Positions 168 to 49,284 of a stretch of DNA of 50,574 nucleotides are shown here, in pieces. The notes below the pieces were generated by a model. The model saw nothing but the letters and a program-made list of their open reading frames with translations, did no database searches and was not told the DNA's origin. Numbering within the stretch: the stretch's first letter is position 1; each line of letters begins with the position of its first letter. This stretch comes from an uncultured Bacilli bacterium (GTDB taxonomy: Bacteria; Bacillota_I; Bacilli_A; RF39; UBA660): assembly GCA_947627915.1 (NCBI GenBank), contig CANQXT010000002.1, positions 1 through 50,574 on the forward strand, written 5' to 3'. The translations under genes and the position numbers were made by a program.

Positions 168-175
168 GTTTTAGC

Positions 176-203
176 AAAAAAAATGTTGCTTGAAAGCAAC
201 ACT
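176..203 (-). terminator. Rho-independent terminator after rpoC
   Basis: Minus strand reads TGTTGCTT-tc-AAGCAACA stem followed by a T8 run, 4 nt after the rpoC stop. Confidence 0.7.
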
Positions 204-206
204 TTT

Positions 207-6800: not shown

Positions 6801-7471
6801 TCTTTTAGAATAGTATTTTCTAAATATTCATTCTTGCCAAAAACACTAATGATATCATCATCACTAGATAATCCTATTGCTCTTAAGAATGTTGTAATTG
6901 GAACTTTTCTTGTACGATCAATTCTAACATAAACAACATTTTTAGCATCTGTTTCAAATTCAAGCCAAGTACCCTTATTAGGTATAACTTCTCCTGAAAT
7001 GATATGACGTCCATTTTTATCTATTTCTTTTTTAAAGTAAATAGATGGACTTCTAACAAGTTGGGAAACAATAACTCTTTCTGCACCATTAATGATAAAA
7101 GTACCTGCTTCAGTCATTAAAGGCATATCTCCTAAAAAGATTTCTTGTTCCTTTACTTCCCCTGTTTCATGAATGTAAACTCTTGCTTGTACTTTTAATG
7201 GTGAAGCATAGTTTACCATTCTTTCTTTTGCTTCCTTGATAGAATATCTTGGAGATTCAAATGAATAGTCTCCTAATTCTAAAGAAATATTTCCAGTAAA
7301 TGATTCCACAGGAAATAAGTCATCAAACACTTCTCTTATTCCTTCATTTAAGAATTGTTGATAACTTTTCTTTTGAATTTCTAACAAATCTGCAAGTTCT
7401 AGCGTATTTTTTGATTTTGCAAAGCTTCTTCTTTTTCGATAATCACCAAATTTTAAGGTTTTATAAGCCAC
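3866..7471 (-). CDS. rpoB: DNA-directed RNA polymerase subunit beta
   Basis: ORF 3866..7489. Firmicute RpoB-like from [29 protein letters not shown] onward. The GTG at 7469-7471, preceded by an AGGGGTGAT RBS, is preferred over the RBS-less ATG at 7489. About 60 aa of acidic C-terminal tail. Confidence 0.97.
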
Positions 7472-7531
7472 GATATCACCCCTATACATAGATTTTCATT
7501 TTGAAAAATATAAATACGTCACCAATTTAAA

Positions 7532-7560
7532 ATTTTATCAAGTATTTAAAATAAAGTCAA
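7532..7560 (-). promoter_or_regulatory. Candidate sigma-A promoter for rpoBC (TTGACT-17-TAAAAT)
   Basis: Hexamers read on the minus strand. The -35 overlaps the stop codon of the upstream methyltransferase gene. Confidence 0.45.
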
Positions 7561-8150
7561 CTGATTTTTAAAGAAATTATAAAATTTCCTTTACTTTTTT
7601 GAATTATGTTACACGTACATAAATTTTCCAATTCTTTTTTTACGCTTTTAGCACCCTTATCTTTTGCAATCACAAACCAAAGTTCCCCATCTTTATTTAA
7701 TTTTGCAAGTCCTCCTTTTAGAAATTCCATTAAGGTTTCTTTCCCTGCTCTAATCGGCGGATTTGTAATAATTAAATCATACTTATCTGTAACATTTTCA
7801 TAAATGTTACTTTCCCAAACTGTTGCATCTACTTTATTTATTTCAATATTCATATTACATAAATGAACTGCTCTTTTATTTATATCAACCATATCAATAT
7901 GTTTATTTAATATTTTACTTAATGTTATACCAATAAAACCATAACCACATCCAACATCAAGTATCTTATTATATTCTCTATTTTTAGATTCTAAAAATGT
8001 TTTAACTAAAAATAAACTAGCATAATCTATTTTATTTTTAGAAAAAACTCCATTATCACTTTTAAACAAAAAATTATATGCATCTAATTGAAAATTTATG
8101 TCTCGTATCTCACTCTTTAAATTTTGATTATTTGTAAAATAGTGTTCCAA
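7557..8150 (-). CDS. Class I SAM-dependent RNA methyltransferase (small-domain RsmC/RlmG-like, B. subtilis YbxB-like position upstream of rpoB)
   Basis: 197 aa with SAM motif I ILDVGCGYGFIG and the ITNPPIRAG (NPPxH/R-like) motif. TTG start with an upstream GGGGAAT RBS. Synteny matches ybxB-rpoB in Bacillus. Confidence 0.85.
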   Translation of the reverse strand: MEHYFTNNQNLKSEIRDINFQLDAYNFLFKSDNGVFSKNKIDYASLFLVKTFLESKNREYNKILDVGCGYGFIGITLSKILNKHIDMVDINKRAVHLCNMNIEINKVDATVWESNIYENVTDKYDLIITNPPIRAGKETLMEFLKGGLAKLNKDGELWFVIAKDKGAKSVKKELENLCTCNIIQKSKGNFIISLKIS

Positions 8151-8246
8151 TACTATTCCCCGTTTCTTTCATATACATTGAGTATAGCATAAAAGATAGA
8201 TGCTAACAAGATTAAAAAATTAAAAATTATGCAATATTTTGTCAAA

Positions 8247-8272
8247 CAAAAAAAGTTAGCAACTCGCTAACC
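8247..8272 (-). terminator. Rho-independent terminator after hup
   Basis: Minus strand reads GTTAGC-gagtt-GCTAAC followed by T7. Confidence 0.6.
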
Positions 8273-8284
8273 TTTTATGACTCA

Positions 8285-8557
8285 TTAATTTAAAGCTTCT
8301 TTTAATTTGCTTCCAGCTTTGAATGAAGCAACTGTCTTTGCAGGAATCTTTAATGGTTCTTTAGTTAAAGGATTGATTCCTTCTCTAGCTTTTCTTTTTT
8401 TAGCACTAAAAGTTCCAAATCCAACTAGAGTAACTTTTCCTTCCTTTTTAAGTCCCTTAGTAATTCCTTCAAAAGTAGCATCTACAGCTCTAGCAGCAGC
8501 AGCTTTAGATATTTCAGCTTTTTCAGCAACTAATTCAACTAATTCTGTTTTAGACAT
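8285..8557 (-). CDS. hup: Nucleoid-associated DNA-binding protein HU
   Basis: 90 aa. MSKTELV..GFGTFSAKKRKAREGINPLTKEPLKIPA is a typical HU/IHF fold signature. Confidence 0.95.
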   Translation of the reverse strand: MSKTELVELVAEKAEISKAAAARAVDATFEGITKGLKKEGKVTLVGFGTFSAKKRKAREGINPLTKEPLKIPAKTVASFKAGSKLKEALN

Positions 8558-8700
8558 GTTTTTCTTACCTCCTCATAATATTTTCATATCTTCGTAGGAC
8601 TTATTGTCCTTACATATTAAGATTAACAAAAAAATATTGTAAAATCAATAAAAAAAGCACATAAATTAGAAAATAATAATAATTTTATTATTATTTTACA

Positions 8701-8730
8701 CAAAAAACGTCTATATAATAGACATTTTTT
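8701..8730 (-). terminator. Terminator after spoIVA
   Basis: Minus strand reads GTCTAT-tat-ATAGAC followed by T6. The stem is short, so confidence is moderate. Confidence 0.5.
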
Positions 8731-8731
8731 A

Positions 8732-10210
8732 TCATAAAACGATAGCAATTAAGTTATTACTTCCCTTATTTACTATTTTAGTTACTGTATTAGATAATTT
8801 GAATCTTGTATTATCAGGCATCATATTAAGCTTAGCTTGAATACCTTCTTGAACTATAACTTCTAAACTACGACCAAATATTTCACTTTTCCAAATACTA
8901 CTTGGATCTGTTTCATAATCTTTCATCAAATAATTTATTAATTCTTTACTTTGAAGTTCACTACCGATAATTGGTTCAAAAGTACTTTCTACATCAACTT
9001 TCATTAAATGAATACTTGATGCTAAAGCTTTTAATTTAACTCCATAACGACTTCCTTGTTTGACTATTTCTGGTGTTTCTAATTTCATATCCTTAAGAGT
9101 TGGATATACAATACCATATCCTGTTGTTTTAGCTTGTTTTAATGCATTCTTTAAAAGTTCTGTTTCTTCTCTATTTTCTTTATAAGTTGCAAATATTTTT
9201 AAAAGTCCTGCTTTAGTTGTCGCTGATTCTCCCACTAAAGATTTTAAAGTTTCATTATATAATTCATTAGGACTTTCTAAATTAAGAGTAATAGTTCCAT
9301 TAGCTGTATCAAGTTCACTAATATAAGCTTTAGATATATATTCACTATCTTCAAAGTGCCCAATTATATAATCAACATCTTTAACTTTATTAACACTAAT
9401 AACACTTTCTTTAATTTTTTCTAAGTAATGCATTTTAATAGCGTTATTCATTGGCAAAACATGAACCCACTCTGGCATATTAACCATAATATCTATTACT
9501 GGGAATTCATATAATGCTTCTTTTAAAATACTCATTATCTCTTTTTCATTCATATTTTCAACATTTATTGGTAAAACAGGAACATCATATGTTTCATTTA
9601 ATCTTCTAGATAATTCTTGCGTATCAGTATTAGTTGGATGAACAGAATTTAATATTACAATAAATGGTTTACCTATTTCTTTTAATTCTGTTACAATTTT
9701 TTCTTCTGCTTCGACATAAGCATCTCTTTTTATTTCCCCAAAAGAACCATCTGTAGTCATTACAATCCCAATTGTTGAATGGTCTTTAATTACTTTTTGG
9801 GTTCCAACTTCTGCTGCTTCCACAAATGGAATAGCATCAGGAAACCACGGGGTTTTTACCATTCTCGGATTACCATCTTCATCTTCATAACCATTTGCCC
9901 CAGGTATAACATATCCTACACAATCTACTAATTTAATATTCGTTTCAAAAGAATCAACTTTAATATTAGCTCCGTTAGAAGGAACAAATTTTGGTTCAGT
10001 TGTCATAATTGTTTTACCTTCAGCACTTTGAGGAATTTCATCTAAACATTTTTTCTTTTCAAAATCATCAGTAATATTAGGAACAACTAAATTTTCTATA
10101 AATCTTTTAATAAAAGTCGATTTACCACATCTTACTGCTCCCACAACACCCAAGTAAATTTCGCCATTTCCTCTTTTAGCAATCGAAGATATTATATTTT
10201 CTTTTTCCAT
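8732..10210 (-). CDS. spoIVA: Stage IV sporulation protein A (spore coat basement-layer ATPase)
   Basis: 492 aa. GEIYLGVVGAVRCGKSTFIKRF (Walker A) and QSAEGKTIMTTEPKFVP are near-identical in pattern to B. subtilis SpoIVA. Adjacent to hup, as in Bacillus. Confidence 0.97.
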   Translation of the reverse strand: MEKENIISSIAKRGNGEIYLGVVGAVRCGKSTFIKRFIENLVVPNITDDFEKKKCLDEIPQSAEGKTIMTTEPKFVPSNGANIKVDSFETNIKLVDCVGYVIPGANGYEDEDGNPRMVKTPWFPDAIPFVEAAEVGTQKVIKDHSTIGIVMTTDGSFGEIKRDAYVEAEEKIVTELKEIGKPFIVILNSVHPTNTDTQELSRRLNETYDVPVLPINVENMNEKEIMSILKEALYEFPVIDIMVNMPEWVHVLPMNNAIKMHYLEKIKESVISVNKVKDVDYIIGHFEDSEYISKAYISELDTANGTITLNLESPNELYNETLKSLVGESATTKAGLLKIFATYKENREETELLKNALKQAKTTGYGIVYPTLKDMKLETPEIVKQGSRYGVKLKALASSIHLMKVDVESTFEPIIGSELQSKELINYLMKDYETDPSSIWKSEIFGRSLEVIVQEGIQAKLNMMPDNTRFKLSNTVTKIVNKGSNNLIAIVL

Positions 10211-10234
10211 AACTTCTCTCCTTTTTCTACTTTA

Positions 10235-10263
10235 ATGCTATGATACATTCTAAAATTTATGCA
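10235..10263 (-). promoter_or_regulatory. Candidate sigma-E-type sporulation promoter for spoIVA
   Basis: Minus strand reads TGCATAA-14 nt-CATAGCAT, about 25 nt upstream of the ATG. It resembles the sigma-E consensus (ATA-rich -35, CATAcanT -10). Match judged by eye only. Confidence 0.3.
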
Positions 10264-10291
10264 AAGAAAAAATGTATTGTTCAAATACATT
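10264..10291 (-). terminator. Rho-independent terminator downstream of 10412..11272
   Basis: Minus strand reads AATGTATT-tgaac-AATACATT followed by TTTTTCTTT. Confidence 0.55.
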
Positions 10292-10411
10292 CGTTCCTAC
10301 AAGTTACTTCGTCCTTTGTGCAACTCATAATAAATGTTTTCTCTTTGTTCAATTTTTTCCACATACCAAAAGAGTAAGATACTGTGAAAGAAAGGATCTG
10401 GTCGTAAATGA

Positions 10412-11272
10412 CTAATATTGTAACCTAACGCCTGTTTCTCCATCATACTTTTGGGAAATGCTGTATGGATATACAAAGACAGCACCAAGGCCAGTACTTC
10501 CTAATGTGAAGTTTAAAGCTTCGTTCATCGTCGTTTTTGCTACAGCATGTTGATAAGATCCAAATAATTCTGGATGACTTGCAGTTTGTTTTACGTCGCA
10601 TTCTAGGTTAAGTTGAAGTCCTTTTAAATTACTATTGTTCACTATATTCATAGCAAAACCAAATCCATTGTCTAATTTTTTAATATGATCTTCATCCCAA
10701 TCATAAAAGATAGTACTCCAAGTGTCATCTAATTTAATTGATTGTTCTCCAAATTGAGAACCATTCCGAACATCAAAACCAACTAAACGAACACCAATAA
10801 CATCAAATTCTCTAGTACTAGGAATTCCTTTCCAAATATTAGATAAAATTACAGGATTATATACTGTACCACCTATAATGGCAATTTCTAATCTTTTGGC
10901 ACTAGTTTCAGAATATGCAGAGTCGGAATTAACCATTGGTCTATTCTCACTCACTACAACGCCTGGAATAAAGTTATCATATTCTTCTTCAGTAATTTCT
11001 TTTTCGGTAACTAAATTTAAACGACGATTATATGTAGTTTCAACATACTTTGTTTCTTTTCTTATATCAGTAAAATCTAAGGCAGATAATTTGTTATATT
11101 TTTCTTGTGTCATATTCATTATATATTCAGGTGTGTATACTTTCAAAAAATTATTATAATCATTTTCTGACATTACAACACCGTTTTGATTAACAATATC
11201 TTTTGCAATGCAATTAAGGGGTATTATTAAAACTACAATAACAATCGTTAAGAATATTTTCAATCTTTTCAT
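10412..11272 (-). CDS. Secreted protein of unknown function
   Basis: The ORF track gives 10412..11353. The start at ATG 11270-11272 (MKRLKIFLTIVIVVLIIPLNCIAKD, a signal peptide) has a GGAGAGG RBS. I recognise no family. Confidence 0.7.
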   Translation of the reverse strand: MKRLKIFLTIVIVVLIIPLNCIAKDIVNQNGVVMSENDYNNFLKVYTPEYIMNMTQEKYNKLSALDFTDIRKETKYVETTYNRRLNLVTEKEITEEEYDNFIPGVVVSENRPMVNSDSAYSETSAKRLEIAIIGGTVYNPVILSNIWKGIPSTREFDVIGVRLVGFDVRNGSQFGEQSIKLDDTWSTIFYDWDEDHIKKLDNGFGFAMNIVNNSNLKGLQLNLECDVKQTASHPELFGSYQHAVAKTTMNEALNFTLGSTGLGAVFVYPYSISQKYDGETGVRLQY

Positions 11273-11335
11273 TTCGCCTCTCCTTTCTAGTGTCATTTTA
11301 TATGAAAATGGTAAAAATTGGCAACCTAATTTTGC

Positions 11336-11364
11336 GAGAATATCAATTCTCAAATTGTGAGAAT
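11336..11364. promoter_or_regulatory. Overlapping inverted repeats (GAGAAT-atca-ATTCTCA-aattg-TGAGAAT), candidate operator
   Basis: Three GAGAAT/ATTCTC half-sites lie just upstream of a TTGCCA-16-TATAAA promoter for 10412..11272. They are immediately downstream of the XRE-family regulator gene. Confidence 0.35.
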
Positions 11365-11385
11365 TTGTCGAAATGTTGAGAAAAA

Positions 11386-11416
11386 TAGAAAAAGATATCG
11401 TTTTTTGTCGATATCT
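11386..11416 (-). terminator. Terminator after the XRE-family gene
   Basis: Minus strand reads AGATATCG-acaaaaaa-CGATATCT followed by TTTTTCTATTTTT. Confidence 0.55.
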
Positions 11417-12534
11417 TAAGTAAACATGTATAATACATTATCATATAAAATTTGATACATTTCTTTATAATTATTACATCTACCAATTGTACATTTTTCT
11501 ACTTTATTAGTATTAATATTATAAATATAGTTTTCTTTCTCAATATTTTCATTATCATAAATTAAAATATGCATAAGATTATTGCTTAAATCATATTCTA
11601 ATTTATAGTTATAGTCATCTTTTTCCTTAAAACAAATTATCTTATTTATCAATTGATAATAAATAGTTTTACAATTTTTTGTGTCTTTAACTAAAGAAGA
11701 ATCCTCTTCTACAAAACCATTTTCTAACAAAACATCTTTAATTAATTTACTATTATTATTCAAGTAACTTATCTCTTCAATTTTGCCTTTATTATATACT
11801 TTACTATTAGTAAAATCTAACGTAAAGATTAATTTTGATTCATATTCTATAATATTGTTTTTATTATCTATTAATTTTAGTTTAATATATAAATTATCTA
11901 AATAATCACTTAAATGTTTTATTTTAATGTAACTTTCAAAATTAGAAAAAACAATATTAATTAGACTAGTGTACTCTTGAATTATGTGATTTCCTTTATC
12001 ATCTTTATAATATAATTCAATACTTAATATATCATCTTTATTTATTTCATTACTTTTTAATTTAATATCACCTAAATATAATAAATCTTTCGTTTTAGTT
12101 TCAATATAGTAACCTTCTAAATAATATATATCACTATTATCAACTCCAACTTGATAAACTTTATATTTATTATAACTACTAATAAATAAGATGGCGATTG
12201 TTACAACTACTGCTAATATACCAACTAAAGTTAAGATTAATTTTATAATCCTGGAATTACGATGACTAACCCGATGGAACTCATTTATAATAGCGTCTAC
12301 TACTTCATCATCAGAATTTTCATCTGCCATTCTTGCTTCCAGTAAATTATAAAATGAAACTTTAAAATATTTACTAATTTGATAAATCATATCAATGTTG
12401 GGATAATTATTACCTGTTTCCCATCTCGATACTGATTTATCCGTCGTTCCTAACTCATCTGCTAATTCTTTTTGCGTTAAACCTTTAGCCTTTCTAAGTT
12501 CAATTATTATATCTCCTAATTTATTACTTTTCAT
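11416..12534 (-). CDS. Membrane-tethered XRE-family HTH transcriptional regulator
   Basis: 372 aa. N-terminal Cro/C1 HTH (LRKAKGLTQKELADELGTTDKSVSRWETG), one TM helix (IIKLILTLVGILAVVVTIAILFI), and a ~250-aa extracytoplasmic domain. Confidence 0.85.
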   Translation of the reverse strand: MKSNKLGDIIIELRKAKGLTQKELADELGTTDKSVSRWETGNNYPNIDMIYQISKYFKVSFYNLLEARMADENSDDEVVDAIINEFHRVSHRNSRIIKLILTLVGILAVVVTIAILFISSYNKYKVYQVGVDNSDIYYLEGYYIETKTKDLLYLGDIKLKSNEINKDDILSIELYYKDDKGNHIIQEYTSLINIVFSNFESYIKIKHLSDYLDNLYIKLKLIDNKNNIIEYESKLIFTLDFTNSKVYNKGKIEEISYLNNNSKLIKDVLLENGFVEEDSSLVKDTKNCKTIYYQLINKIICFKEKDDYNYKLEYDLSNNLMHILIYDNENIEKENYIYNINTNKVEKCTIGRCNNYKEMYQILYDNVLYMFT

Positions 12535-12565
12535 ACTTCACCACAATTTTTTGTACCACTAAAAT

Positions 12566-13189
12566 TTATATATCCTTTCTTTTACATCGATTATTAAAGA
12601 TACAGTCATTACATAAGGGGTTTTTACTCTTACAAAAGTATCTACCAAATAAAACTAATTGATGATGTAATCTACTCCATTTATCTTTGGGAAAAAATTG
12701 CATTAGTTTTTTCTCAATTATTAAAACATCATCATTTTTATTGGCAATATCTAATCTTTTGGAAACTCTACTAACATGAGTATCAACAGCAAAAGTAGGT
12801 TCATTAAATAAATTAGCTAGAATCAAATTAGTAGTTTTTCGACCAACCCCAGGTAAACTTTCTAAATATTCTCGATTATTTGGAACAATACCATTATAAT
12901 CGATAATTAATCTTTTAGCAATTTCTTTTATATAATAGGCTTTTCTCTTAAATGTTCCCACTGGTTTAATAATATCTTCAATAACCTTTATATCTAAATT
13001 ACTTATTTCTTCTAAAGAATATTTAAATAATTCTTTAGTAACTATATTAACTCTTTTATCCGTTGATTGAGCAGATAAAACAGTAGCCATTAATAATTCA
13101 TAATCCTTAGTATAATCAAGTTCACAATGGGGATTTGGAATTATTTTATCTAAATATTCGATTATTTCTTTACTACTTATCATAATCAT
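12566..13189 (-). CDS. nth: Endonuclease III
   Basis: 207 aa with an HhH-GPD region (LPGVGRKTTNLILA..AVDTHVSRV) and a C-terminal 4Fe-4S motif CKSKNPLCNDCIFNNRC. Follows dnaD, as in Bacillus. Confidence 0.95.
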   Translation of the reverse strand: MIMISSKEIIEYLDKIIPNPHCELDYTKDYELLMATVLSAQSTDKRVNIVTKELFKYSLEEISNLDIKVIEDIIKPVGTFKRKAYYIKEIAKRLIIDYNGIVPNNREYLESLPGVGRKTTNLILANLFNEPTFAVDTHVSRVSKRLDIANKNDDVLIIEKKLMQFFPKDKWSRLHHQLVLFGRYFCKSKNPLCNDCIFNNRCKRKDI

Positions 13190-13814
13190 CTAACCAATCA
13201 TAATCAAAAACACTAGTCTCTTCTAATTTTTTATTATTTTCATTATTAATATTTTTATTTTGATAATAATTTTCTACATCTTCTTTAGTTTTAATTCCTT
13301 TTTTTTGCCATTCATATAAAATAGTATCAATATATTTCGTATTAACTGCTCCATTATATATTGCTTCATCTAATGCTGCTAAAACTAAATCTTCATTATA
13401 CATCTCTTCACTCCAGGCTTTTATAAGTTCTGTTTCTTGACTATATAATGGTCTTTTAAATTTCTTTTCAAAGATAGTAAAAATATCTTCTTTAATTAAT
13501 TTCTTCTTTTCTTTTATTTTTTCTACTTCAATATCATGATAAAAACCTTCTAAAGATATTTTATCAATTCTTTTACCAAGTTCATTCTTATCGCTTTCTA
13601 ATTTAATAATATTTTTACTAATTAAATTATTAAAAGCATTTAAAATATCTTTTTTATCTATTTTTAATTTAGAACTTATTCTTTCTAAATCAAATATTAA
13701 ATCATCAGCATTAACAAAATAAAGCAATAATAAAAATTCTTGTAAAGATACATTTAACTTATAAGTTGCTTCAATAAAATCAGTATCCACTACATATTTT
13801 TTACTATTACTCAT
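13173..13814 (-). CDS. dnaD: DnaD-domain replication initiation / helicase-loading protein
   Basis: 213 aa. The C-terminal DnaB_2/DnaD repeat pattern (..YIDTILYEWQKKGIKTKEDVE) and dnaD-nth synteny support the call. Confidence 0.75.
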   Translation of the reverse strand: MSNSKKYVVDTDFIEATYKLNVSLQEFLLLLYFVNADDLIFDLERISSKLKIDKKDILNAFNNLISKNIIKLESDKNELGKRIDKISLEGFYHDIEVEKIKEKKKLIKEDIFTIFEKKFKRPLYSQETELIKAWSEEMYNEDLVLAALDEAIYNGAVNTKYIDTILYEWQKKGIKTKEDVENYYQNKNINNENNKKLEETSVFDYDWLDDYDK

Positions 13815-14904
13815 TTTTCTTACCTTCCTGTCTATTTTTTAAATAATTAATTAATATTTTATTTTTATTTTCTAATTTACCATCTAGTATTTTATTAATT
13901 AAATGTCTTTTAATCTTTTTAATTTTTTCACTAGGTTTTATCTTTAGAATAGTCATAATTTCTTCACTAGTTATATCTAAATCTTCGGCAAATTGAATTG
14001 GCATATCATTAAACATTTTATTTATTTTTTTCTTACTTATATTTAATATTTGTCCTGCAACTAAAGAAGTATATAAACCATAAGTAAATAATATTTTATT
14101 ATCGATATATCCTTTGTTTATTATTTGCCTAATTTTTATTATATTTCTCTTTTCTTGTTTTGTAAATGTAAAATATGAAGAAAATTCTAATTGCGACCAC
14201 ATCCCACATAAATCACTAACATAAGTAATATCATCATATTTAATATTTAAAAGATCTAATATTTTTAATTCTTTAAGTAAAGATAAACCTTTATTATAAT
14301 TAGGACTTAATAATATTTTATTTAATTCTCCTTTAATTCTATCTTTAGATAAAGTATTAATTAACTGATAATTATCTTTTATTTCTTTTAATAAATTATC
14401 TTCAATATTAAAATTTAAAGTACAAGAAAATCTTATTGCTCGTAATATTCTTAATGGATCTTCAATTAATCTTTCTTTAATATTACCATTCATCTTAATT
14501 AAAAAATTATTTAAATCATTTACGCCATTAACTAAATCAATAACTTGTTCATCTTTATCCATACAAATAGAATTAATTGTAAAATCTCTTCTTTTAATAT
14601 CTTCATTTAAATCATCTATATAGATAAGTTCAGTAGGTCTTCTATTTTCATATTTTAATTCTTTGCGAAAAGTTGTAATATCTATATTATAATTTTTTAT
14701 TTTTAAATTAAAACCACCATAATCATTTTTCTTATTATAGCTCGGAAATAAACGATGAATATCTTTAGGTAAAGCATTAGTACAAATATCAATATCATTA
14801 GATTTAATACCGAGTAAATAATCTCTAACAAATCCTCCGACTAAATAAGCTTTAAAACCATCATCTTCTAATTTTTTTAATATATTTTTTATTATTTTAT
14901 CCAT
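13807..14904 (-). CDS. cca: CCA-adding tRNA nucleotidyltransferase
   Basis: GGFVRDYLLGIKSNDIDI and RRDFTINS motifs. The start is moved to ATG 14902-14904 (MDKIIKN), 10 nt after the mutM stop. The ORF track extends to 14955. Confidence 0.9.
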   Translation of the reverse strand: MDKIIKNILKKLEDDGFKAYLVGGFVRDYLLGIKSNDIDICTNALPKDIHRLFPSYNKKNDYGGFNLKIKNYNIDITTFRKELKYENRRPTELIYIDDLNEDIKRRDFTINSICMDKDEQVIDLVNGVNDLNNFLIKMNGNIKERLIEDPLRILRAIRFSCTLNFNIEDNLLKEIKDNYQLINTLSKDRIKGELNKILLSPNYNKGLSLLKELKILDLLNIKYDDITYVSDLCGMWSQLEFSSYFTFTKQEKRNIIKIRQIINKGYIDNKILFTYGLYTSLVAGQILNISKKKINKMFNDMPIQFAEDLDITSEEIMTILKIKPSEKIKKIKRHLINKILDGKLENKNKILINYLKNRQEGKKNE

Positions 14905-14914
14905 TTTATACCTT

Positions 14915-15733
14915 CTATTTTTGACAATGTTCACAATAATAAGTACTTCTGCCACCTATTTTAATTTTCTTTATGATATTTCCACAGACAACACAATTTT
15001 TTCCTTCTCTTTTATGAACTTTCAAATAATTTTGGTAAGAACCACTTACTCCTAAACTTGAGGTATAACTTCTAATAGTAGTTCCACCATTCTTAATTGC
15101 GTTAGTAATTATTTCATTTGTGGAAGATACAATTTTAGCGCATTCTTCTAAAGATATGGTACTTGCTTTTCTTAAGGGATTTATTTGACTTTGAAATAAA
15201 ACTTCATCAGCATAAATATTTCCTAAACCACTTATAATAGTTTGATCTAATAAAATAGTTTTCATAGGTAATTTTTTATTATTAAATTTATCTTTTAAAT
15301 ATTCTTTTGTTAAGCCCTTACTATTAGGTTCCATTCCTTGTTTTTTAATCTCTTCTGTATTTTCTAAATCTTCTTTTTTAACTATTTTCATTCGACCAAA
15401 TTTTCTTGTATCGTGATATCTAAGATCTATATTATCAGTAAATGTAATAATTAAATGTTCATGTTTATTAATTTCTTCTTTATGATCTTTAAGAAAATAT
15501 TTACCTTCCATTCTTAAATGACTTAATAAATAATATTTATCTAATTCAAATATTAACCATTTTCCTCGACGTAAAATATCTTTAAAACTATTATTTATTA
15601 ATATTTTTTTAAATTCATCGGGATTATTTTCAATTATCTTATCATAAATAATATTAACATCTTTTATTTTCTTATTTAATATTTGTTTTTTTAAAACATT
15701 TCTTACTGTTTCAACTTCTGCAATCTCAGGCAT
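14915..15733 (-). CDS. mutM: Formamidopyrimidine-DNA glycosylase
   Basis: MPEIAEVETV N-terminus (catalytic Pro2), an H2TH region, and a C-terminal zinc finger CVVCG..YYCEHCQ. Start at ATG 15731-15733. Confidence 0.95.
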   Translation of the reverse strand: MPEIAEVETVRNVLKKQILNKKIKDVNIIYDKIIENNPDEFKKILINNSFKDILRRGKWLIFELDKYYLLSHLRMEGKYFLKDHKEEINKHEHLIITFTDNIDLRYHDTRKFGRMKIVKKEDLENTEEIKKQGMEPNSKGLTKEYLKDKFNNKKLPMKTILLDQTIISGLGNIYADEVLFQSQINPLRKASTISLEECAKIVSSTNEIITNAIKNGGTTIRSYTSSLGVSGSYQNYLKVHKREGKNCVVCGNIIKKIKIGGRSTYYCEHCQK

Positions 15734-15835
15734 GATTATCACCAATAATATTGTAACACGTATCTTGTATTTCCAAAAGTTAATATTGCTTTTTTATTAT
15801 TTTTTATAAAAAAAATCTAGTTCAAACTAGATTCT

Positions 15836-17272
15836 TTATATCTTATAAATTTTATCTTTATTACGATAATATAATTTTCCTATTATAGTTATTAATACTA
15901 TTATTCCAATAATACCTACAATACTATAAAATCCTGTTTGGGGATTTTCAACAGTTTTATCAGCATTAGGTGATGTTTGGGGTTTATTTTCTGTTATAAT
16001 ATCTTCAGTTTTACCAGGATCTACCGGAGTTTCAGGTTTAGGATCATTATTTTCTAATACATTTGATAAATATGCAGTATATGTATTATCTTGATTATCA
16101 TCATATTTTACATAATAACCTTGAGGTGTTGTAATATTAGTATCTTCTATAATATTATTTAAAATAATTTTGCCATCATAAAAGTTTAAATTATATCCTT
16201 CACGATAACCATATTTAAAATTACCACTATTTATATATATTAATGGTGATTCACTTGTTACATTATCATCATTCTTACCAATTGTAATATTATTAAATAA
16301 AATTCCTTCACTATTTTTAGCATCAATAACCCCACCATTTATATAAAAATGATTATTATCTTTAGTATTAGAAGCATCACTTAAAATATAAGCTTTAGTA
16401 TTTGAAGTAATTGTTCCGTTATTAAAAATAATATCTACATTTTTAGCTAACACACCAAATAATAAAGCAGAATCAATTGTATTAAAAGTACCATTATTTA
16501 TTTCTATTGTTGTTTTATTTTCACCAAATAAACTAGCAAAAGAATTAACAATATTTTTTACATTAAAAACACCATTATTAATAATTGTACTACTTCCAGT
16601 CTCAAAATCTATTAATGCTGTATTAGAAGTAAAATTTCCATTATTTATAGTAAATGTACCAGATGTATTTCTAATATGAAATGTATTCATATTAAAGTTA
16701 TATGTTCCATCTTCAATTGTAACTAAATTTCGATTTTCAAGAAAAACACCTTGAGTTGTATAATTACCATTTTTAATAGTAACTTCTCCTGTTTTAATAT
16801 TTAGTATAAAATAAGACATACTTTCACCATTTAAGGTAACTTCTTCTAAAGATAATTTTCCTGAATTATAAAAATAATAATTAGCTTCAATATGTTCTGT
16901 ATTTAAATCATCAATATTTAAATTATTTAAGGATAATTCACCAGATTCTTGATTATTTATTGAAACAGGAAAATCTCCAGTTGTTGTAGCAATCAATTTA
17001 CCTGGTCCTTTTATTTCTAATTTACCACTATTATTTATATTACTATTAAAAGAATGACTATTTAAATTAAGACTAATATTTTTATCTTCACTAACTTTTA
17101 TTGAAGTTGCTTCATCACTTAATAAAAGTATTTCATCATTTTCAACTGCTTCATCAATTGCTTCTTGTAAAGTTTCATACTCTTGTTCTTTAATTTTAGC
17201 CACATTTTCAGCATTAACAATACTAGGATACAAAAATAATATTGTTAATACAGTTAAAATAACTCTTCTCAT
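15836..17272 (-). CDS. Cell-wall-anchored beta-helix repeat surface protein with NPQTG sorting signal
   Basis: 478 aa with a signal peptide and repeated NNG(N/V/T)F..N units typical of right-handed beta-helix adhesins. C-terminus is NPQTG + hydrophobic helix + YRNKDKIYKI. Confidence 0.8.
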   Translation of the reverse strand: MRRVILTVLTILFLYPSIVNAENVAKIKEQEYETLQEAIDEAVENDEILLLSDEATSIKVSEDKNISLNLNSHSFNSNINNSGKLEIKGPGKLIATTTGDFPVSINNQESGELSLNNLNIDDLNTEHIEANYYFYNSGKLSLEEVTLNGESMSYFILNIKTGEVTIKNGNYTTQGVFLENRNLVTIEDGTYNFNMNTFHIRNTSGTFTINNGNFTSNTALIDFETGSSTIINNGVFNVKNIVNSFASLFGENKTTIEINNGTFNTIDSALLFGVLAKNVDIIFNNGTITSNTKAYILSDASNTKDNNHFYINGGVIDAKNSEGILFNNITIGKNDDNVTSESPLIYINSGNFKYGYREGYNLNFYDGKIILNNIIEDTNITTPQGYYVKYDDNQDNTYTAYLSNVLENNDPKPETPVDPGKTEDIITENKPQTSPNADKTVENPQTGFYSIVGIIGIIVLITIIGKLYYRNKDKIYKI

Positions 17273-17304
17273 TTTTTTAAAACCTCTCTTTACTTTATAA
17301 CAGA

Positions 17305-17334
17305 ATTATATATTACCATCACCTTAAGTGTCAA
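17305..17334 (-). promoter_or_regulatory. Sigma-A promoter TTGACA-18-TATAAT plus conserved leader GTTATAAAGTAAAG
   Basis: Read on the minus strand upstream of 15836..17272. The leader (17288..17301) is identical to 27517..27530. Confidence 0.5.
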
Positions 17335-17381
17335 GTTTGAACATTAATATTATTATTTGAATTTTTTAAAAATATATACCC

Positions 17382-17410
17382 TAAAAAGAAAGAGATTTTT
17401 ATTCTCTTTC
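17382..17410 (-). terminator. Rho-independent terminator of the cassette operon
   Basis: Minus strand reads GAAAGAGA-ataaaaa-TCTCTTTC followed by TTTTT. Homologous hairpin at 49226..49251. Confidence 0.6.
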
Positions 17411-17411
17411 A

Positions 17412-17447
17412 GGGTTAAGTTTCTATTTTATATCGTCTTCGTTGACG
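17412..17447. repeat. Conserved 3'-flank element 'X' (copy A)
   Basis: GGGTTAAGTTTCTATTTTA-tat-CGTCTTCGTTGACG lies 2 nt beyond the stop of 17450..18892. It is nearly identical to 49162..49195, which has a 1-nt linker. It contains a CGTC/GACG mini-palindrome. Confidence 0.6.
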
Positions 17448-17449
17448 AG

Positions 17450-18892
17450 TTAATTAGATGGAGAAAGAACGAGACGAAAGCCATAGGCTTCGGAAGCAAT
17501 ACCATTATGCCCATCGAAGTGAAACTGACCAGCCATGACTCCATCGGCTTGACATCCTCCTCGAAGGAACCACGGGTAAGAAGAGTCAATGAAGTACGAG
17601 TCATCAGCATACCAAACGTTATGATAATGTTTAGCACTATTTTTATCCCAATAGTAATAGAATGGTCCCATCTCTCCTGTTGCATCTCCTAAGATTCTGT
17701 TACTATATGAGTTAGTATCACTTGGATATTTATCTATATAACCATTTTCTACCTCTTTTGTTAAGTCTAATTCATTTGTAAAACCACTACTACCTACAGT
17801 TCCTTCCCTATAAGCAGCCATATATTCGTGTGCTCCTCCAGACATATCATATACACCTGTTATATTTCCAGTTGTACTTGCTAAGTAACCTGTTGGAGTA
17901 TTATATGGTTGAGTTGTTTTGTCATCTGTTCCATATGTTCCTAGATAAATACTTTGATCAGTATTTGCTGCTGCGCTATATCCTGTTTTATATTCTGAAT
18001 TATTATTTATTCTTATTTCTGTTCCTATTCCATATTTAGAATGTGATAAGTATGCTACTGCTCCCCATTCTGTATTCTTCATCATATGACTATCTAATGT
18101 CTCTCTTGCATAATTTTTTCCGGCATCAAAAAATGTTTTTACTGTTGCACTTCGCCATGAGGTTACGTTTGGCTTTACTACCATATCGGTTGATGATGTT
18201 CCTCCGGTTTCGAACTTTCCTACCCATATGCCACTTAATTCTTTATCTCCTAATGTAAATGCTGGATGGGTTAACCAGTCTCCATCTTTTGCAGCACTAC
18301 TTTTATTTGTTTCTTTACTTTCAAACTCGATATTGATTAATCTTGCTTGTCCTAATGCTTGGGTTGTTGAGGTATTATAATTATCATTTGTTAATGTATT
18401 TCCTTCTTTTGCATCATTATCACTATTTATATGCCATACTTGATATTTATATCTTGGTATCCAGACAAAGTATCCATTTATATCAGTTTCTTCTATTTTT
18501 TGTCCTACCGAATAACTTTTACCTTTTTGTAATATTACGGCATTAGCCCATCTTTTCTCACTATAGTTATACCATTCACTATGTTTATTGGCATAATATA
18601 CATCTCCATTTGGTTTTATCTCTACTGGTATTAAATCTCCTTTTAGTACAGGATCATTTCCTTTTAATTCTTTATCAGTCCATTCTTCCTTATGTAACCC
18701 ACTTCTTTCATATAATTCATCTATGGATTCTTGAACATTATTATGTTCTCCATGACTTGTTGTATTATCATATGTTACTTCTTCACTATCTATCATTGTA
18801 CTTTCGGCATATACGATACTTATTGATATTATTACTATTCCTATTATTATTCCTATTAATATCTTATAATTATTTTTTATTACTTTCTTCAT
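17450..18892 (-). CDS. Secreted FGE-sulfatase / C-type-lectin-fold (SUMF1-like) protein with hypervariable C-terminus
   Basis: 480 aa with a signal peptide (..SIVYA/ES). FGE-fold landmarks are VTSWRSATVKTF..KNTEWGAVAYL, GVYDMSGGAHEYM, RGG....GFRLV. The last ~55 codons switch to A-poor, GC-rich codons. Confidence 0.85.
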   Translation of the reverse strand: MKKVIKNNYKILIGIIIGIVIISISIVYAESTMIDSEEVTYDNTTSHGEHNNVQESIDELYERSGLHKEEWTDKELKGNDPVLKGDLIPVEIKPNGDVYYANKHSEWYNYSEKRWANAVILQKGKSYSVGQKIEETDINGYFVWIPRYKYQVWHINSDNDAKEGNTLTNDNYNTSTTQALGQARLINIEFESKETNKSSAAKDGDWLTHPAFTLGDKELSGIWVGKFETGGTSSTDMVVKPNVTSWRSATVKTFFDAGKNYARETLDSHMMKNTEWGAVAYLSHSKYGIGTEIRINNNSEYKTGYSAAANTDQSIYLGTYGTDDKTTQPYNTPTGYLASTTGNITGVYDMSGGAHEYMAAYREGTVGSSGFTNELDLTKEVENGYIDKYPSDTNSYSNRILGDATGEMGPFYYYWDKNSAKHYHNVWYADDSYFIDSSYPWFLRGGCQADGVMAGQFHFDGHNGIASEAYGFRLVLSPSN

Positions 18893-18914: not shown

Positions 18915-19355
18915 TTAAAAATTTGCTTTATATAATTCATCTATTGCACATTGAATATTTGTACAATTTGTTCTATTATTTGAATTATCATATATTAATA
19001 TACTGGCCATCAACTTTTCAAAGTACAATATACAATATGTTGTTTCTGTATTACTTAATGTTATTGTTCCATGATTATATTTTATTTCTGGATCTTCTAG
19101 TTTATCTCCTTTTTCATTCATACATTCTGTTTTAGATAAATCTAATGTATATCCTTTCTCTGGCCAATTAGTTTTCTTATATTCTGTATACGTTCCATCT
19201 CCATTTTCATCCCAATATACTGCAAAGACATCTTTATTTATTTTATTATTTTTTATATTTACTTCATTTAAACTTTTACTATTATTTATTTGATACATCA
19301 TATACAATGAAAATATTTCTATTATTACTAGTACTCCTATAATTATCTTCTTCAT
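18915..19355 (-). CDS. Small N-terminally membrane-anchored protein, first gene of the cassette
   Basis: 146 aa. It has one N-terminal TM helix and ends NIQCAIDELYKANF. It lies 22 nt upstream of the FGE-like gene. No family recognised. Confidence 0.75.
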   Translation of the reverse strand: MKKIIIGVLVIIEIFSLYMMYQINNSKSLNEVNIKNNKINKDVFAVYWDENGDGTYTEYKKTNWPEKGYTLDLSKTECMNEKGDKLEDPEIKYNHGTITLSNTETTYCILYFEKLMASILIYDNSNNRTNCTNIQCAIDELYKANF

Positions 19356-29499: not shown

Positions 29500-30035
<536 letters not shown>

Positions 30036-47300: not shown

Positions 47301-47388
47301 CAAGTATCTTATCTTTCATCCATCTATTTAAGATATCTTGTTCAACTAATGATGTTTTACGATTATCTAGACTTTCAAATTTTATCAT
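44320..47388 (-). CDS. ileS: Isoleucyl-tRNA synthetase (type-2 length, 1022 aa)
   Basis: HIGH-region PATANGMPGLHH, KMSKS as KMHKSRGN, and a CP1 editing domain. The leader is a T-box with an AUC specifier. Confidence 0.97.
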   Translation of the reverse strand: MIKFESLDNRKTSLVEQDILNRWMKDKILDKCIQNREDKPYWVFYDGPATANGMPGLHHMVAKFLKDSFCKYKTMQGYKVLRKVGWDTHGLPVEVQVEKKLGFENKNDIEKYGIKEFNEECRKAVWENEKSFCDLTNKMGQFIDLENRYITYDNNYIETEWWILKKFFDEGLFYEGSKILPYCPRCGTGLASHEVAQGYKEVSVDTVIVPMKKKDSDEYFLVWTTTPWTLLSNVAICVNPKEEYILAKSKDYKFIVAKKLANKVLGDDYEVLKTYKGKDLEYTEYEQLIPVLSVNKKAFFVTCDEYVTMEDGTGLVHIAPAFGADDANVGKNYNLPYLNPVGEDGCFTEGPWKGMLVFDADLEVIKYLKENDKLFKKQKIVHNYPHCWRCKSPLLYYSKPSFYLEVTKLKDKIIANNKTVNWYPSFVGEKRFGNWLENLNDWAISRSRYWGTPLPLWRCECGHDMMVGSRKELVELAIEDIDETIDLHRPYVDDVHILCPKCGKTMTRCKDVIDCWFDSGAMPFAQYHYPFENEELFNNQFPADFICEGIDQTRGWFYSLLVISTFVKGVSPYKNVLVNELLLDKNGQKMHKSRGNAIEPFTIMEEYGADTVRWYLPYVSPVWTPLKFDEDGLKEVYSKFFNPLKNTYNFFSMYATTDNIDIDKCNVAIKDREEIDKWLLSKYNSLLKVVIEGYEEYDLNKVVRNITNFVSDDLSNWYIRRCRNRFWGSTLDNSKKAVYITTYEVLVGLSKIIAPVVPYISEEIYTKLTKKYSVHTEDFPKVDESLIDSSLEEKMDYVRNLISLGRNVREDAKIKVRTPLLEAIIDSNIYNKISDLVHLLEEELNVKKIVSDDDLNKYMNITLKPNYKEVGKLFGAKIKEYEAFLQTQDLNELNKEKVKFNDTVITKDMYELRITSKEGFNVGVLDNLFIVLNTNLTDDLINEGHAREFVSKVQNLRKTNGYEVSDRINIYYDGDFDNVIAEYNEYIKNETLAINITKKNLKMEEYNINGIPVKIELEKVSQ

Positions 47389-47401
47389 ATTTATCCTCCC
47401 T

Positions 47402-47620
47402 ATTAAAAAAAGTTCATAAATATAAGGACGAAAAACCGTGGTACCACCTTAATTCATGAACTATTAGTCATCTTTATATGTTTAACGACATTACCCGTGT
47501 TATCTTTTCAATAACCATTCCCCAAGTGATATAAATTAAACTTCATTATTAGTTTTCACCAACCACTAACTCTCTTGTAAATCCATTTAACTCACGTGTC
47601 TTGTTCAATTTAAATTTACA
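47402..47620 (-). promoter_or_regulatory. T-box leader (Ile, AUC specifier) controlling ileS
   Basis: The minus strand shows an AGAGA box, GGTTGGTGAAAAC, a specifier loop ..TATATCAC.., the T-box AATTAAGGTGGTACCACGG, and a terminator GTTCATGAATTAAGG...CCTTATATTTATGAAC + T7. Confidence 0.8.
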
Positions 47621-47626
47621 TTTAAA

Positions 47627-47655
47627 ATTATATGAAATTAATTAAAATAAGTCAA
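47627..47655 (-). promoter_or_regulatory. Sigma-A promoter TTGACT-17-TATAAT for the ileS T-box leader
   Basis: Hexamers at 47655-47650 and 47632-47627 on the minus strand. Confidence 0.55.
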
Positions 47656-47777
47656 TGATTTTTTTATTTTTTTAATTGACGTTTTTATATTTATTTTTTT
47701 AGATTTACTTGTTATTTTAGACTATCTTTGTTAGAATATAGGTATACTATTAATATAAATAATAAAGAGGGATTAAT

Positions 47778-49139: not shown

Positions 49140-49161
49140 GGAAAATATAATTATTTTCCTC

Positions 49162-49195
49162 GGGTTAAGTTTCTATTTTAACGTCTTCGTTGACG
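49162..49195. repeat. Conserved 3'-flank element 'X' (copy B)
   Basis: GGGTTAAGTTTCTATTTTA-a-CGTCTTCGTTGACG. On the + strand here, AACGTC-ttcgtt-GACGTT + T6 could also terminate the phosphohexomutase transcript. Confidence 0.6.
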
Positions 49196-49225
49196 TTTTT
49201 TATTTGCTTTAAATATTTTTAAGAT

Positions 49226-49251: not shown

Positions 49252-49284
49252 AATGTTAATAGATCTTATATCTTTGTTAATAAA

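What the first reader, a model, noticed from the sequence alone, without database searches (positions are those of the whole stretch)
17450..17614. Adenine-depleted, GC-rich hypervariable C-terminus on an FGE/C-type-lectin fold: DGR variable-region signature with no RT or TR in sight
The last ~55 codons (from VWYADDSYF to the stop) change composition abruptly. By hand count about 30 of 165 coding-strand bases are A, against roughly 39% A in the 24 codons just upstream. Arg switches from AGA to CGA/CGT and Leu from TTA to CTT/CTC. C-ending codons (GCC, CAC, TCC, GGC), which are rare elsewhere, become common. Encoding scaffold residues with A-free codons, and having NNC codons at variable sites (AAC-templated), is what diversity-generating retroelements impose on their targets. 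The known DGR targets are typically C-lectin/FGE-sulfatase folds whose variable region spans RGG....GFR at the extreme C-terminus, exactly as here (RGGCQADGVMAGQFHFDGHNGIASEAYGFRLV). The stop-free antisense and alternate-frame ORFs in the track (17357..17692 +, 17428..17685 -) exist only over this tail and reflect the same anomaly. Caveat: I found no reverse transcriptase, Avd-like gene or template repeat in the 50 kb.
Basis: partly seen in the sequence, partly recalled or inferred. Interest (0 to 1): 0.8.

Follow-up and report, generated by a model that had tools for sequence, protein, structure and literature searches.

The report
Eroding remote DGR variable region
The odd A-poor, GC-rich gene tail is a real footprint of a diversity-generating retroelement (a known system that rewrites the tips of surface proteins), but this copy looks like a decaying, no-longer-rewritten one, while a sister gene 32 kb away carries the fresh copy.

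Summary
The last 165 nt of gene 17450..18892(-) have 30/165 A and GC3 0.38, against a window mean of A 0.40 and GC3 0.10.

The protein belongs to a large family of membrane-anchored DGR variable proteins. The nearest solved structure is TaqVP, 5VF4. Eleven related loci carry an Asn-rich template repeat about 200 nt downstream, with 149 mismatches at template adenines and 10 elsewhere. That repeat is followed by MutS-like, bAvd and RT genes.

The window holds no RT, Avd or TR. However, short contigs from the same samples that hold this strain at 99.96-100% identity carry a complete cassette. The adjacent VR of that cassette differs between samples almost only at template adenines, so the element is active.

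The paralog tail (49299..49443) matches that TR at all but one non-adenine position, with one 3-nt deletion. The flagged tail mismatches at 23/114 non-adenine positions (16 GC->AT) and is identical in a second sample.

Verdict: DGR-derived, but probably an eroding former target. It is a new member of a known kind and of modest interest.

The parts
17450..18892 (-). Gene for a 480-aa protein of a DGR variable-protein family. It has an N-terminal membrane anchor and an extracellular CLec/FGE-like domain.
   Evidence: ORF. There are 7,981 homologues at E<=1e-3, some carrying PF03781. phmmer against the PDB hits only 5vf4_A at 2e-7. The AF2 model has pTM 0.79, and the top Foldseek PDB hit is 5VF4 (TaqVP) at E 6e-7, probability 1.0.
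17450..17614 (-). The flagged tail (c1): a VR-derived segment, WYADDSYF...GFRLVLSPSN plus stop. It is A-depleted and partly eroded towards AT.
   Evidence: Composition. Against the TR of L084 it has 19/34 mismatches at adenine positions and 23/114 at non-adenine positions, 16 of them GC->AT; 11 of 22 scorable mismatches show the same base in the more decayed relative L1b. It is identical in sample ERZ27249530.
49285..50574 (-). Paralogous gene of the same family. Its N-terminus runs off the window end. It is about 78% identical in protein sequence to the first gene.
49285..49446 (-). Tail of the paralog (c2): a pristine remote VR. The TR-matching core is 49299..49443.
   Evidence: A 0.16, GC 0.54, GC3 0.60, which equals my hand count of the TR's own GC3 of about 0.61. 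Against the TR of L084/L097/L098/L099 it has 12 mismatches at template adenines, 1 at a non-adenine position (T->G) and one 3-nt deletion. Its last 19 nt are identical to the TR.
17404..17447 (-). Conserved element of about 35 nt, CGTCAACGAAGACG(A)T(A)TAAAATAGAAACTTAACCC, immediately after the stop codon and followed by a terminator-like hairpin. Its function is unknown.
   Evidence: There are two exact copies of the 14-mer in the window against 0.01 expected. It also follows the stop codon of the related gene in L001.
49162..49195 (-). Second copy of the same 35-nt element, here about 90 nt downstream of the paralog's stop codon and beyond a terminator-like hairpin.
17357..17692 (+). Spurious ORF (with its partner 17428..17685 on the minus strand). 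It exists only because the GC-rich tail has few stop triplets.
   Evidence: Both overlap the tail exactly, and the real reading frame is fixed by family homology.

Best explanation
The gene encodes a membrane-anchored surface protein of a family whose C-terminal CLec/FGE-like tip is rewritten by a chromosomal diversity-generating retroelement.

In the complete cassettes of this family the gene order is target gene (VR), TR, MutS-domain-I protein (MSL), bAvd, RT. The known DGR mechanism works as follows. The TR is transcribed. The RT copies it with errors opposite adenines. The cDNA then replaces the VR, starting from an identical 3' stretch. Because the TR avoids adenine outside its AAT/AAC codons and has GC3 of about 0.6, every rewriting stamps an A-poor, GC-rich patch onto a gene that otherwise has GC3 of about 0.1.

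Shown here:
- The stamp is present on two paralogs in the window.
- The window holds no TR or RT.
- A cassette with an identical TR sits on short contigs in the same samples as this strain. That cassette is actively diversifying its adjacent VR.

Inferred:
- That cassette belongs to this organism. It is missing from the 50-kb contig because assemblies break at the VR/TR repeat.
- The paralog tail at 49285..49446 is a remote VR that this TR wrote recently.
- The flagged tail at 17450..17614 was once such a VR but has lost its exact 3' match to the TR. It is now drifting towards AT by ordinary mutation, with some paralog recombination, so it is a compositional fossil rather than a live hypervariable region.
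For: Family membership and mechanism:
- N-rich TR copies lie about 200 nt downstream of the VR in L002, L007, L009, L012, L014, L015, L017, L019, L022, L070 and L081.
- Pooled TR-VR mismatches are 149 at A and 10 at non-A.
- The L012 cassette proteins hit MutS_I (8.5e-10), bAvd (4e-15) and RVT_1 (8e-15).
- The RTs carry IGNYTSQ and YMDD.
- L085 shows the cassette next to rplS and lepB, so it is chromosomal.

Synonymous composition as an internal control:
- TR-linked VRs have GC3 0.54-0.72, against about 0.15 for the gene body.
- Many TR-less paralogs with the same residues have tail GC3 0.06-0.25. The fold therefore does not require these codons.
- c2 has GC3 0.60, c1 has 0.38, and the decayed relative L1b has 0.17.

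Same strain, same samples:
- L090 and L102 (ERZ27249530) are 99.96% and 100% identical to the window.
- L091 (ERZ27249283) is 100% identical.
- L095 (ERZ27249541) is 100% identical over 46179..49507.
- L096 (ERZ27249546) is 99.8% identical.
- Cassette contigs L098, L099, L084 and L101 come from those same four samples. The TR is identical, 149/149, in L084, L097, L098 and L099.

Activity of the cassette:
- L098 differs from L084 at 12 positions in 3,029 nt, and 11 of them are in the VR.
- L099 differs from L084 at 12 positions, all in the VR.
- 20 of these 24 differences are at template adenines.

c2 and c1 against that TR:
- c2 has 12 adenine mismatches, 1 non-adenine mismatch and one 3-nt gap. 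It is the best match to the TR in about 1 Mb of family loci apart from the cassette-adjacent VRs themselves.
- c1 has 23/114 non-adenine mismatches, 16 of them GC->AT. Of the 22 that can be compared with L1b, 11 show the same base there.
- c1 differs from the TR at 3 positions in the terminal 19 nt.
- c1 is unchanged in ERZ27249530, whose contig differs from the window by 2 SNPs elsewhere.
Against: - The cassette is linked to this genome only by co-occurrence in four samples, similar coverage (3-5x against 6-8x) and the c2 match. There is no physical linkage.
- The closest cassette-adjacent target (P0002) is listed under an NCBI source, while P0001 and P0003 are masked. P0002 may therefore sit in a different MAG.
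- The stasis of c1 rests on one independent sample.
- The identity of c2 in ERZ27249541 may be trivial if the window was assembled from that sample.
- c2 carries a 3-nt deletion relative to the TR, which retrohoming does not normally produce. It also lacks the strong hairpin seen after cassette-adjacent VRs. It could therefore have received its tail by recombination from a diversified paralog rather than by retrohoming.
- c1 is still strongly A-depleted (A3 0.13), so a second, unseen TR serving it cannot be excluded.
Confidence: 0.65

Rival explanations
1. The flagged tail is a live remote VR that is still rewritten, either rarely by the known TR or by a second TR elsewhere in the genome.
For: - It is still the second most A-depleted coding stretch in the window.
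- Its first ~45 nt after the opening four codons (TCGTAC...CGAGGAGG) match the TR at all non-adenine positions but one.
- c1/c2 differences are enriched at TR-adenine columns: 16/38 against 18/114, p=0.0014.
- Remote DGR targets are documented (PMC5758913).
Against: - It has 23/114 non-adenine mismatches, mostly GC->AT. Cassette and c2 VRs have 1-3.
- The mismatches concentrate in the 3' half, which retrohoming would overwrite first.
- It has 3 mismatches in the terminal 19 nt.
- It is identical in a second sample in which the cassette VR differs.
- No second TR was seen in any related locus.
Confidence: 0.2
2. Neither tail is written by retrohoming in this genome. The A-poor tails were imported by homologous recombination between family paralogs or strains, and this strain may lack a DGR.
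For: - The family is mosaic. Window 50272..50475 is 203/204 identical to a paralog in L001, while the flanks are 70-85% identical.
- c1 looks chimeric: its 5' half is TR-like and its 3' half resembles L1b.
- c2 has a 3-nt deletion and lacks the cassette-type hairpin.
- No RT is found in the window.
Against: - Cassette contigs co-occur with this strain in four of four samples where both could be checked.
- The non-adenine identity of c2 to that TR (110/111) is far above the 75-85% identity of the gene bodies.
- Recombination explains the movement of tails, not their origin.
Confidence: 0.12
3. The composition reflects the amino-acid content of the domain, or recent transfer of the gene from a GC-richer donor. 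It has nothing to do with retroelements.
For: - The tail is rich in Gly, Arg, Trp and Ala, which raises GC at codon positions 1-2.
- Another GC-rich island in the window (29502..30023) is explained that way, because it is a collagen-repeat protein.
Against: - The shift is at synonymous sites: GC3 0.38-0.60 against 0.10.
- It starts abruptly about 55 codons before the stop, not at the gene boundary.
- Paralogs with the same scaffold residues have GC3 0.06-0.25.
- The nucleotide match to a TR is adenine-specific.
Confidence: 0.02

Closest known systems
Cellular DGRs with multiple or remote targets (Treponema denticola TvpA family; the 'non-adjacent targets' of Wu et al. 2018, PMC5758913)
   Same: There is one chromosomal TR/RT and several paralogous surface proteins with C-terminal CLec-type VRs scattered in the genome. 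Remote VRs are recognised by A-to-N differences from the TR. Here there are a cassette-adjacent VR, c2 and possibly P0003.
   Different: The host is an uncultured, roughly 26% GC spore-forming Bacilli-class gut bacterium. One of the scattered copies (c1) is visibly eroding. The paralogs are also mosaic through recombination. Linkage of the cassette to this genome is inferred, not shown.
Thermus aquaticus DGR variable protein TaqVP (PDB 5VF4; PMC6328139)
   Same: It is the only PDB sequence hit (E 2e-7) and the top structural hit (E 6e-7, probability 1.0). It has a CLec/FGE-like fold with the VR at the extreme C-terminus.
   Different: Sequence identity is about 16%. The window protein has an extra N-terminal anchor and a region of about 200 residues. 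TM-scores are low (0.33/0.40) because only part of the model aligns.
MSL-containing DGRs (the MutS-like accessory class of Wu et al. 2018; the Legionella DGR is one)
   Same: The related cassettes encode a small MutS-domain-I protein together with Avd upstream of the RT. The survey likewise found that MSL-containing DGRs also contain avd.
   Different: The survey found only 16 MSL cases. Here the RT profile search retrieved 5,770 proteins at E<=1e-20, and the best 120 are 58-100% identical to the query RT. Every cassette examined has the MSL-Avd-RT order. The role of MSL is untested.
Bordetella phage BPP-1 Mtd/Brt, the DGR prototype
   Same: It shares adenine-specific TR-to-VR information flow, an Avd accessory protein, an identical 3' stretch shared by TR and VR, and a hairpin downstream of the cassette-adjacent VR.
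   Different: This element is chromosomal rather than on a phage. The target is a membrane-anchored cell protein rather than a tail fibre. It templates with AAT as well as AAC codons. The remote copies in the window lack the hairpin.

Membership tests
DGR variable region (target of mutagenic retrohoming) | A cognate template repeat whose differences from the VR are confined to template adenines | tested here: not met
   For the flagged tail (17450..17614) against the only TR available (L084, L097, L098 and L099, all identical): 19/34 mismatches at adenine positions and 23/114 at non-adenine positions. For the paralog tail (49299..49443) the feature is met: 12 adenine mismatches, 1 non-adenine mismatch and one 3-nt deletion.
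DGR variable region (target of mutagenic retrohoming) | A DGR-clade reverse transcriptase ([LIV]GxxxSQ, YxDD) in the same genome | tested here: inconclusive
   There is none in the 50-kb window. An RT with IGNYTSQ and YMDD lies on 2.6-18.9-kb contigs from the same four samples that hold this strain at 99.8-100% identity. Physical linkage is not shown.
DGR variable region (target of mutagenic retrohoming) | The VR forms the C-terminal part of a C-type-lectin/FGE-like (or Ig) fold | tested here: met
   The top Foldseek PDB hit is 5VF4 (TaqVP), followed by weak FGE hits. phmmer hits 5vf4_A at 2e-7. Several homologues carry PF03781.
DGR variable region (target of mutagenic retrohoming) | A 3' end of the VR identical to the 3' end of the TR (IMH-like priming/homing stretch) | tested here: not met
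   The TR ends in GGGTTTCGCCTCGTCCTTT. c2, L1a and the cassette VRs are 19/19 identical to it. The flagged tail reads GGCTTTCGTCTCGTTCTTT, 16/19. Whether 3 mismatches abolish homing was not tested.
DGR variable region (target of mutagenic retrohoming) | Variation between individuals or samples restricted to adenine-templated positions | tested here: not met
   The flagged tail is identical in ERZ27249530. The cassette-adjacent VR differs between ERZ27249541, ERZ27249530 and ERZ27249283 at 23 VR positions, 20 of them template adenines, with only 1 difference in about 2.9 kb outside the VR. This rests on one comparison. For c2 the result is inconclusive.
DGR variable region (target of mutagenic retrohoming) | Accessory gene (Avd and/or HRDC/MSL) next to TR and RT | tested here: inconclusive
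   bAvd and MutS_I proteins are present in every related cassette. They are absent from the window.
Formylglycine-generating enzyme / FGE-sulfatase (PF03781) as an enzyme family | A significant match to the Pfam model, and the catalytic Cys pair / copper site | tested here: not met
   The window protein has no Pfam hit at E<=0.1. Structural matches to FGEs are weak, with E 0.2-3. Catalytic residues were not examined. The resemblance is one of fold only.

The most novel reading that the evidence does not exclude
The organism runs a two-layer variation system. One cassette-adjacent VR is continuously diversified by the DGR. Recombination among roughly 3-9 scattered, mosaic paralogs then distributes or archives diversified tails. 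Copies that lose the 3' homing stretch decay at the genome's AT-biased rate. If so, the series c2 -> c1 -> L1b would act as a molecular clock of time since the last retrohoming.
Probability: 0.15. Interest if true: 0.55.

Novelty: new member of a known kind. Interest (0 to 1): 0.3.

Why it matters
The result shows that a purely compositional signal can flag DGR targets in a very AT-rich genome even when the RT and TR are missing from the contig. The signal is adenine depletion plus a jump in synonymous GC. The result also shows why the RT and TR go missing: the VR/TR repeat breaks short-read assemblies, so the cassette ends up on 2.6-3.9-kb contigs that are unlikely to be binned.

It also gives a practical criterion for separating live VRs from fossil ones. 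Live VRs keep the TR's GC3 and match it at every non-adenine position. Fossil VRs keep low A but lose GC3 through C->T and G->A drift.

Biologically this is one more chromosomal DGR acting on a surface-protein family in an uncultured gut Bacilli-class bacterium. That is useful for annotation but not surprising.

Tried and rejected
- Pfam on the window protein and both neighbours gave nothing useful.
- Exact-protein contig look-ups failed for P0001, P0002, P0003, P0008 and the 146-aa upstream gene.
- A lineage-specific VR/TR pattern found nothing in viral contigs or metagenome contigs. A protein search of viral contigs found no relative. There is therefore no evidence of phage association.
- The RT profile search listed no source-masked RT that could be assigned to the window's own assembly. 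Cluster look-up showed P0003 as an NCBI protein on a 36.9-kb contig but could not tie it to this genome.
- Tetranucleotide similarity does not discriminate between related AT-rich contigs (r 0.97-0.99 for all of them), so it cannot link the cassette to the window.
- Rfam has no match anywhere in the window, including the 35-nt conserved element. No tRNA is present.
- No homologue more than 83% identical to either window paralog exists in the protein collection, so protein-level population variants could not be compared.
- The idea that c2 could itself be the TR was rejected. It is the in-frame end of a full paralog and is the most A-poor stretch in the window.
- Whole-gene HGT and amino-acid composition were rejected (see rival explanations).

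Full report
**Observation**

Gene 17450..18892(-) encodes a 480-aa protein with an N-terminal hydrophobic anchor. On the coding strand the last 165 nt contain 30 A (18.2%) and are 47% GC. The 72 nt upstream contain 27 A (37.5%). Arg codons change from AGA to CGA/CGT, and Leu codons change from TTA to CTT/CTC.

I scored 2,740 sliding 165-nt windows taken from 36 ORFs of the window. The tail has the second-lowest A fraction: 0.17, against a mean of 0.40 and sd 0.056. It is also among the highest in GC3: 0.38, against a mean of 0.10 and sd 0.056. The two overlapping extra ORFs are by-products of the stop-poor composition.

blastn of the tail against the window finds a second copy at 49271..49530, 81% identical over 263 nt. 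It is the end of a paralogous gene, 49285..>50574(-), that runs off the window. This tail is the single most extreme coding stretch in the window, with A 0.16 and GC3 0.58. I call the flagged tail c1 and the paralog tail c2.

**The family is a DGR target family**

- The protein has thousands of homologues, some carrying PF03781. Its only PDB sequence match is 5vf4_A.
- An AlphaFold model (pLDDT 74, pTM 0.79) has as its top three Foldseek PDB matches the chains of 5VF4, the Thermus aquaticus DGR variable protein. Weak FGE matches follow (identity of 5VF4 confirmed in PMC6328139).
- Homologues 71-80% identical are conserved except at discrete positions of the tail: WYAD-x-S-x-F-V-x-SS-x-PWF-x-RGG-xx-D-x-GVLAGQF-x-F-xxxx-G....
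- A pattern built from the invariant VR bases hit one MAG in the species-representative genomes, an uncultured Bacilli bacterium (CANQST01). There the target gene is followed by an in-frame, Asn-rich copy of the tail, which is a template repeat.
- tblastn of the tail over 80 metagenomic loci found the same arrangement in ten more loci.
- Across the eleven TR-VR pairs, 149 mismatches fall on template adenines and 10 on the roughly 1,200 other positions.
- Downstream of the TR lie a MutS-domain-I protein, a bAvd protein and an RVT_1 reverse transcriptase. The RT carries IGNYTSQ and YMDD.
- This corresponds to the MSL+Avd accessory class described by Wu et al. (PMC5758913).
- In CANQST01 the cassette is followed by rplS and lepB, so it is chromosomal. 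Searches of viral contigs were negative.

**Synonymous composition separates templated tails from untemplated ones**

In TR-adjacent VRs, GC3 is 0.54-0.72 and A3 is at most 0.12, while the gene bodies have GC3 of about 0.15. Many TR-less family members keep the same scaffold residues but have tail GC3 of 0.06-0.25. The fold therefore does not need these codons. The composition is imposed by copying from the TR. By my own count from the TR sequence, the TR's GC3 is about 0.61. c2 (0.60) sits with the templated class. c1 (0.38) is intermediate. The relative L1b (L001 2377..2550; 0.17) is decayed.

**No cassette in the window, but one in the same samples**

The window has no RT, Avd, MSL or TR. 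c2 is followed 145 nt later by a convergent phosphoglucomutase-type gene, so c2 cannot be cassette-adjacent.

Exact-protein look-ups of window genes recovered contigs from an ENA assembly series that match the window as follows:

| Locus | Sample | Identity to window | Window region |
|---|---|---|---|
| L090 | ERZ27249530 | 99.96% | 6646..11557 |
| L102 | ERZ27249530 | 100% | 11836..17744 |
| L091 | ERZ27249283 | 100% | 7380..11557 |
| L095 | ERZ27249541 | 100% | 46179..49507 |
| L096 | ERZ27249546 | 99.8% | 47457..49141 |

An RT profile search found P0154 on a contig of the same length (20,890 nt) as the contig of P0002, the closest homologue of the window protein. Its ENA copy, L084, also comes from ERZ27249541. 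L084 carries the end of P0002's VR, a TR, MSL, Avd and RT.

The 90%-identity cluster mate P0241 lies on 2.6-3.9-kb contigs from ERZ27249530, ERZ27249283, ERZ27249546 and others. The TR is identical, 149/149, in L084, L097, L098 and L099. These contigs begin or end inside the VR or TR. Contigs of the window strain also break at the family genes: L103 ends at 17453 and L095 at 49507. This is a plausible reason why the binned 50-kb contig has no RT nearby.

**The cassette is active**

L098 differs from L084 at 12 of 3,029 positions, and 11 of them are in the VR. L099 differs from L084 at 12 positions, all in the VR. Twenty of these 24 differences are at template adenines, and only one lies outside the VR.

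**The two window tails against that TR**

- c2 has 12 mismatches at adenines, one T->G mismatch and one 3-nt deletion. Its terminal 19 nt are identical to the TR. Apart from the cassette-adjacent VRs, it is the best match to the TR among about 1 Mb of family loci. The gene bodies are only 75-85% identical.
- c1 has 19/34 adenine mismatches and also 23/114 non-adenine mismatches. Sixteen of those are GC->AT. Of the 22 that can be compared with L1b, 11 show the same base there. It has three mismatches in the terminal 19 nt.
- More of c1's non-adenine mismatches lie in the 3' half (14/58 against 9/56 in the 5' half), which retrohoming rewrites first, and a ~45-nt stretch of the 5' half is almost TR-like. 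Together with clear mosaicism among the paralogs, this suggests recombination rather than recent homing.
- c1 is identical in ERZ27249530, whose contig differs from the window by two SNPs elsewhere.

**Interpretation**

The tail is DGR-derived with near certainty. I estimate about 0.7 that c1 is an orphaned, eroding VR. I estimate about 0.75 that c2 is a recently written remote VR of a DGR carried by this organism.

Weak points:
- Cassette-genome linkage is by co-occurrence only.
- The test of c1 stasis has n=1.
- c2's deletion and its lack of the cassette-type hairpin leave room for import of its tail by recombination.

**Comparison with known systems and novelty**

Chromosomal DGRs with scattered paralogous targets are documented, as are MSL/Avd accessories. 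This is a new member of that kind in an uncultured, roughly 26% GC, spoIVA-bearing Bacilli-class gut bacterium. The visible gradient from fresh through eroding to decayed VRs is a useful annotation criterion, but it is not a new mechanism.

Noticed in passing
window 49285..50574 (-): A second family paralog whose tail (49285..49446) is even more A-poor and GC-rich than the flagged one. It matches an external TR at all but one non-adenine position.
   Followed up: yes
window 17404..17447 and 49162..49195; L001 2553..2590: A conserved element of about 35 nt, CGTCAACGAAGACG-T-AAAATAGAAACTTAACCC. It lies directly after the stop codon of c1 and of the related L001 gene, but 90 nt beyond c2's stop codon and behind a terminator-like hairpin. 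There is no Rfam match, it is absent from the other 80+ family loci, and its function is unknown.
   Followed up: partly
window 50272..50475 vs L001: This stretch of the c2 gene is 203/204 identical to a paralog on another contig (L001, sample ERZ27249541), while the flanks are 70-85% identical. The family is mosaic, which implies gene conversion between paralogs or strains.
   Followed up: partly
L084 ~174..221; L012 ~11459..11506; L002 and L022 equivalents: Cassette-adjacent VRs are followed 40-55 nt after the stop codon by a strong 11-12-bp hairpin. Its stem sequence differs completely between loci while the T-rich loop (CTTCTTTTTTAAA) is conserved. It is not consistently followed by a T-run. 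It could be the DGR target-recognition hairpin. The window's two tails lack it.
   Followed up: partly
L020 11249..11600: The target gene's tail runs straight into the spacer that normally follows the TR, and no separate TR exists upstream of MSL-Avd-RT. This looks like a VR/TR recombinational collapse or an assembly collapse.
   Followed up: no
L084, L097-L101, L095, L102-L104 (contig ends): Contigs of the same strain and of the cassette end inside or beside family tails (at window 17453, 17744 and 49507, and inside the VR or TR of the cassette). The cassette therefore sits on 2.6-3.9-kb contigs. This probably explains why a MAG contig shows VRs without an RT.
   Followed up: partly
window 18915..19355 (-): The small gene just upstream of the target encodes a 146-aa anchored protein. 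It ends in CTNIQCAIDELYKANF, which echoes the NVQESIDELYERSG motif near the target's N-terminus. The upstream gene in L012 ends similarly (CETVQCAIDEINSMLV). It may be a conserved partner.
   Followed up: no
window 29502..30023 (-): The other strong GC-rich island of the window (GC 0.56 at 29501..29620) is a collagen triple-helix repeat protein (PF01391, 3e-16). It is GC-rich through Gly/Pro codons and is not A-depleted on its coding strand.
   Followed up: yes
L008 3675..3836: This family member's tail is almost unmutated relative to the L012-type TR (nine Asn codons retained). It could be a VR caught just after a faithful homing event, or an assembly chimera of VR and TR.
   Followed up: no
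window 8732..10210 (-): The precomputed Pfam hits on the identical gene in L090 are SpoIVA domains. This very AT-rich, uncultured Bacilli-class organism is therefore probably a spore former.
   Followed up: no
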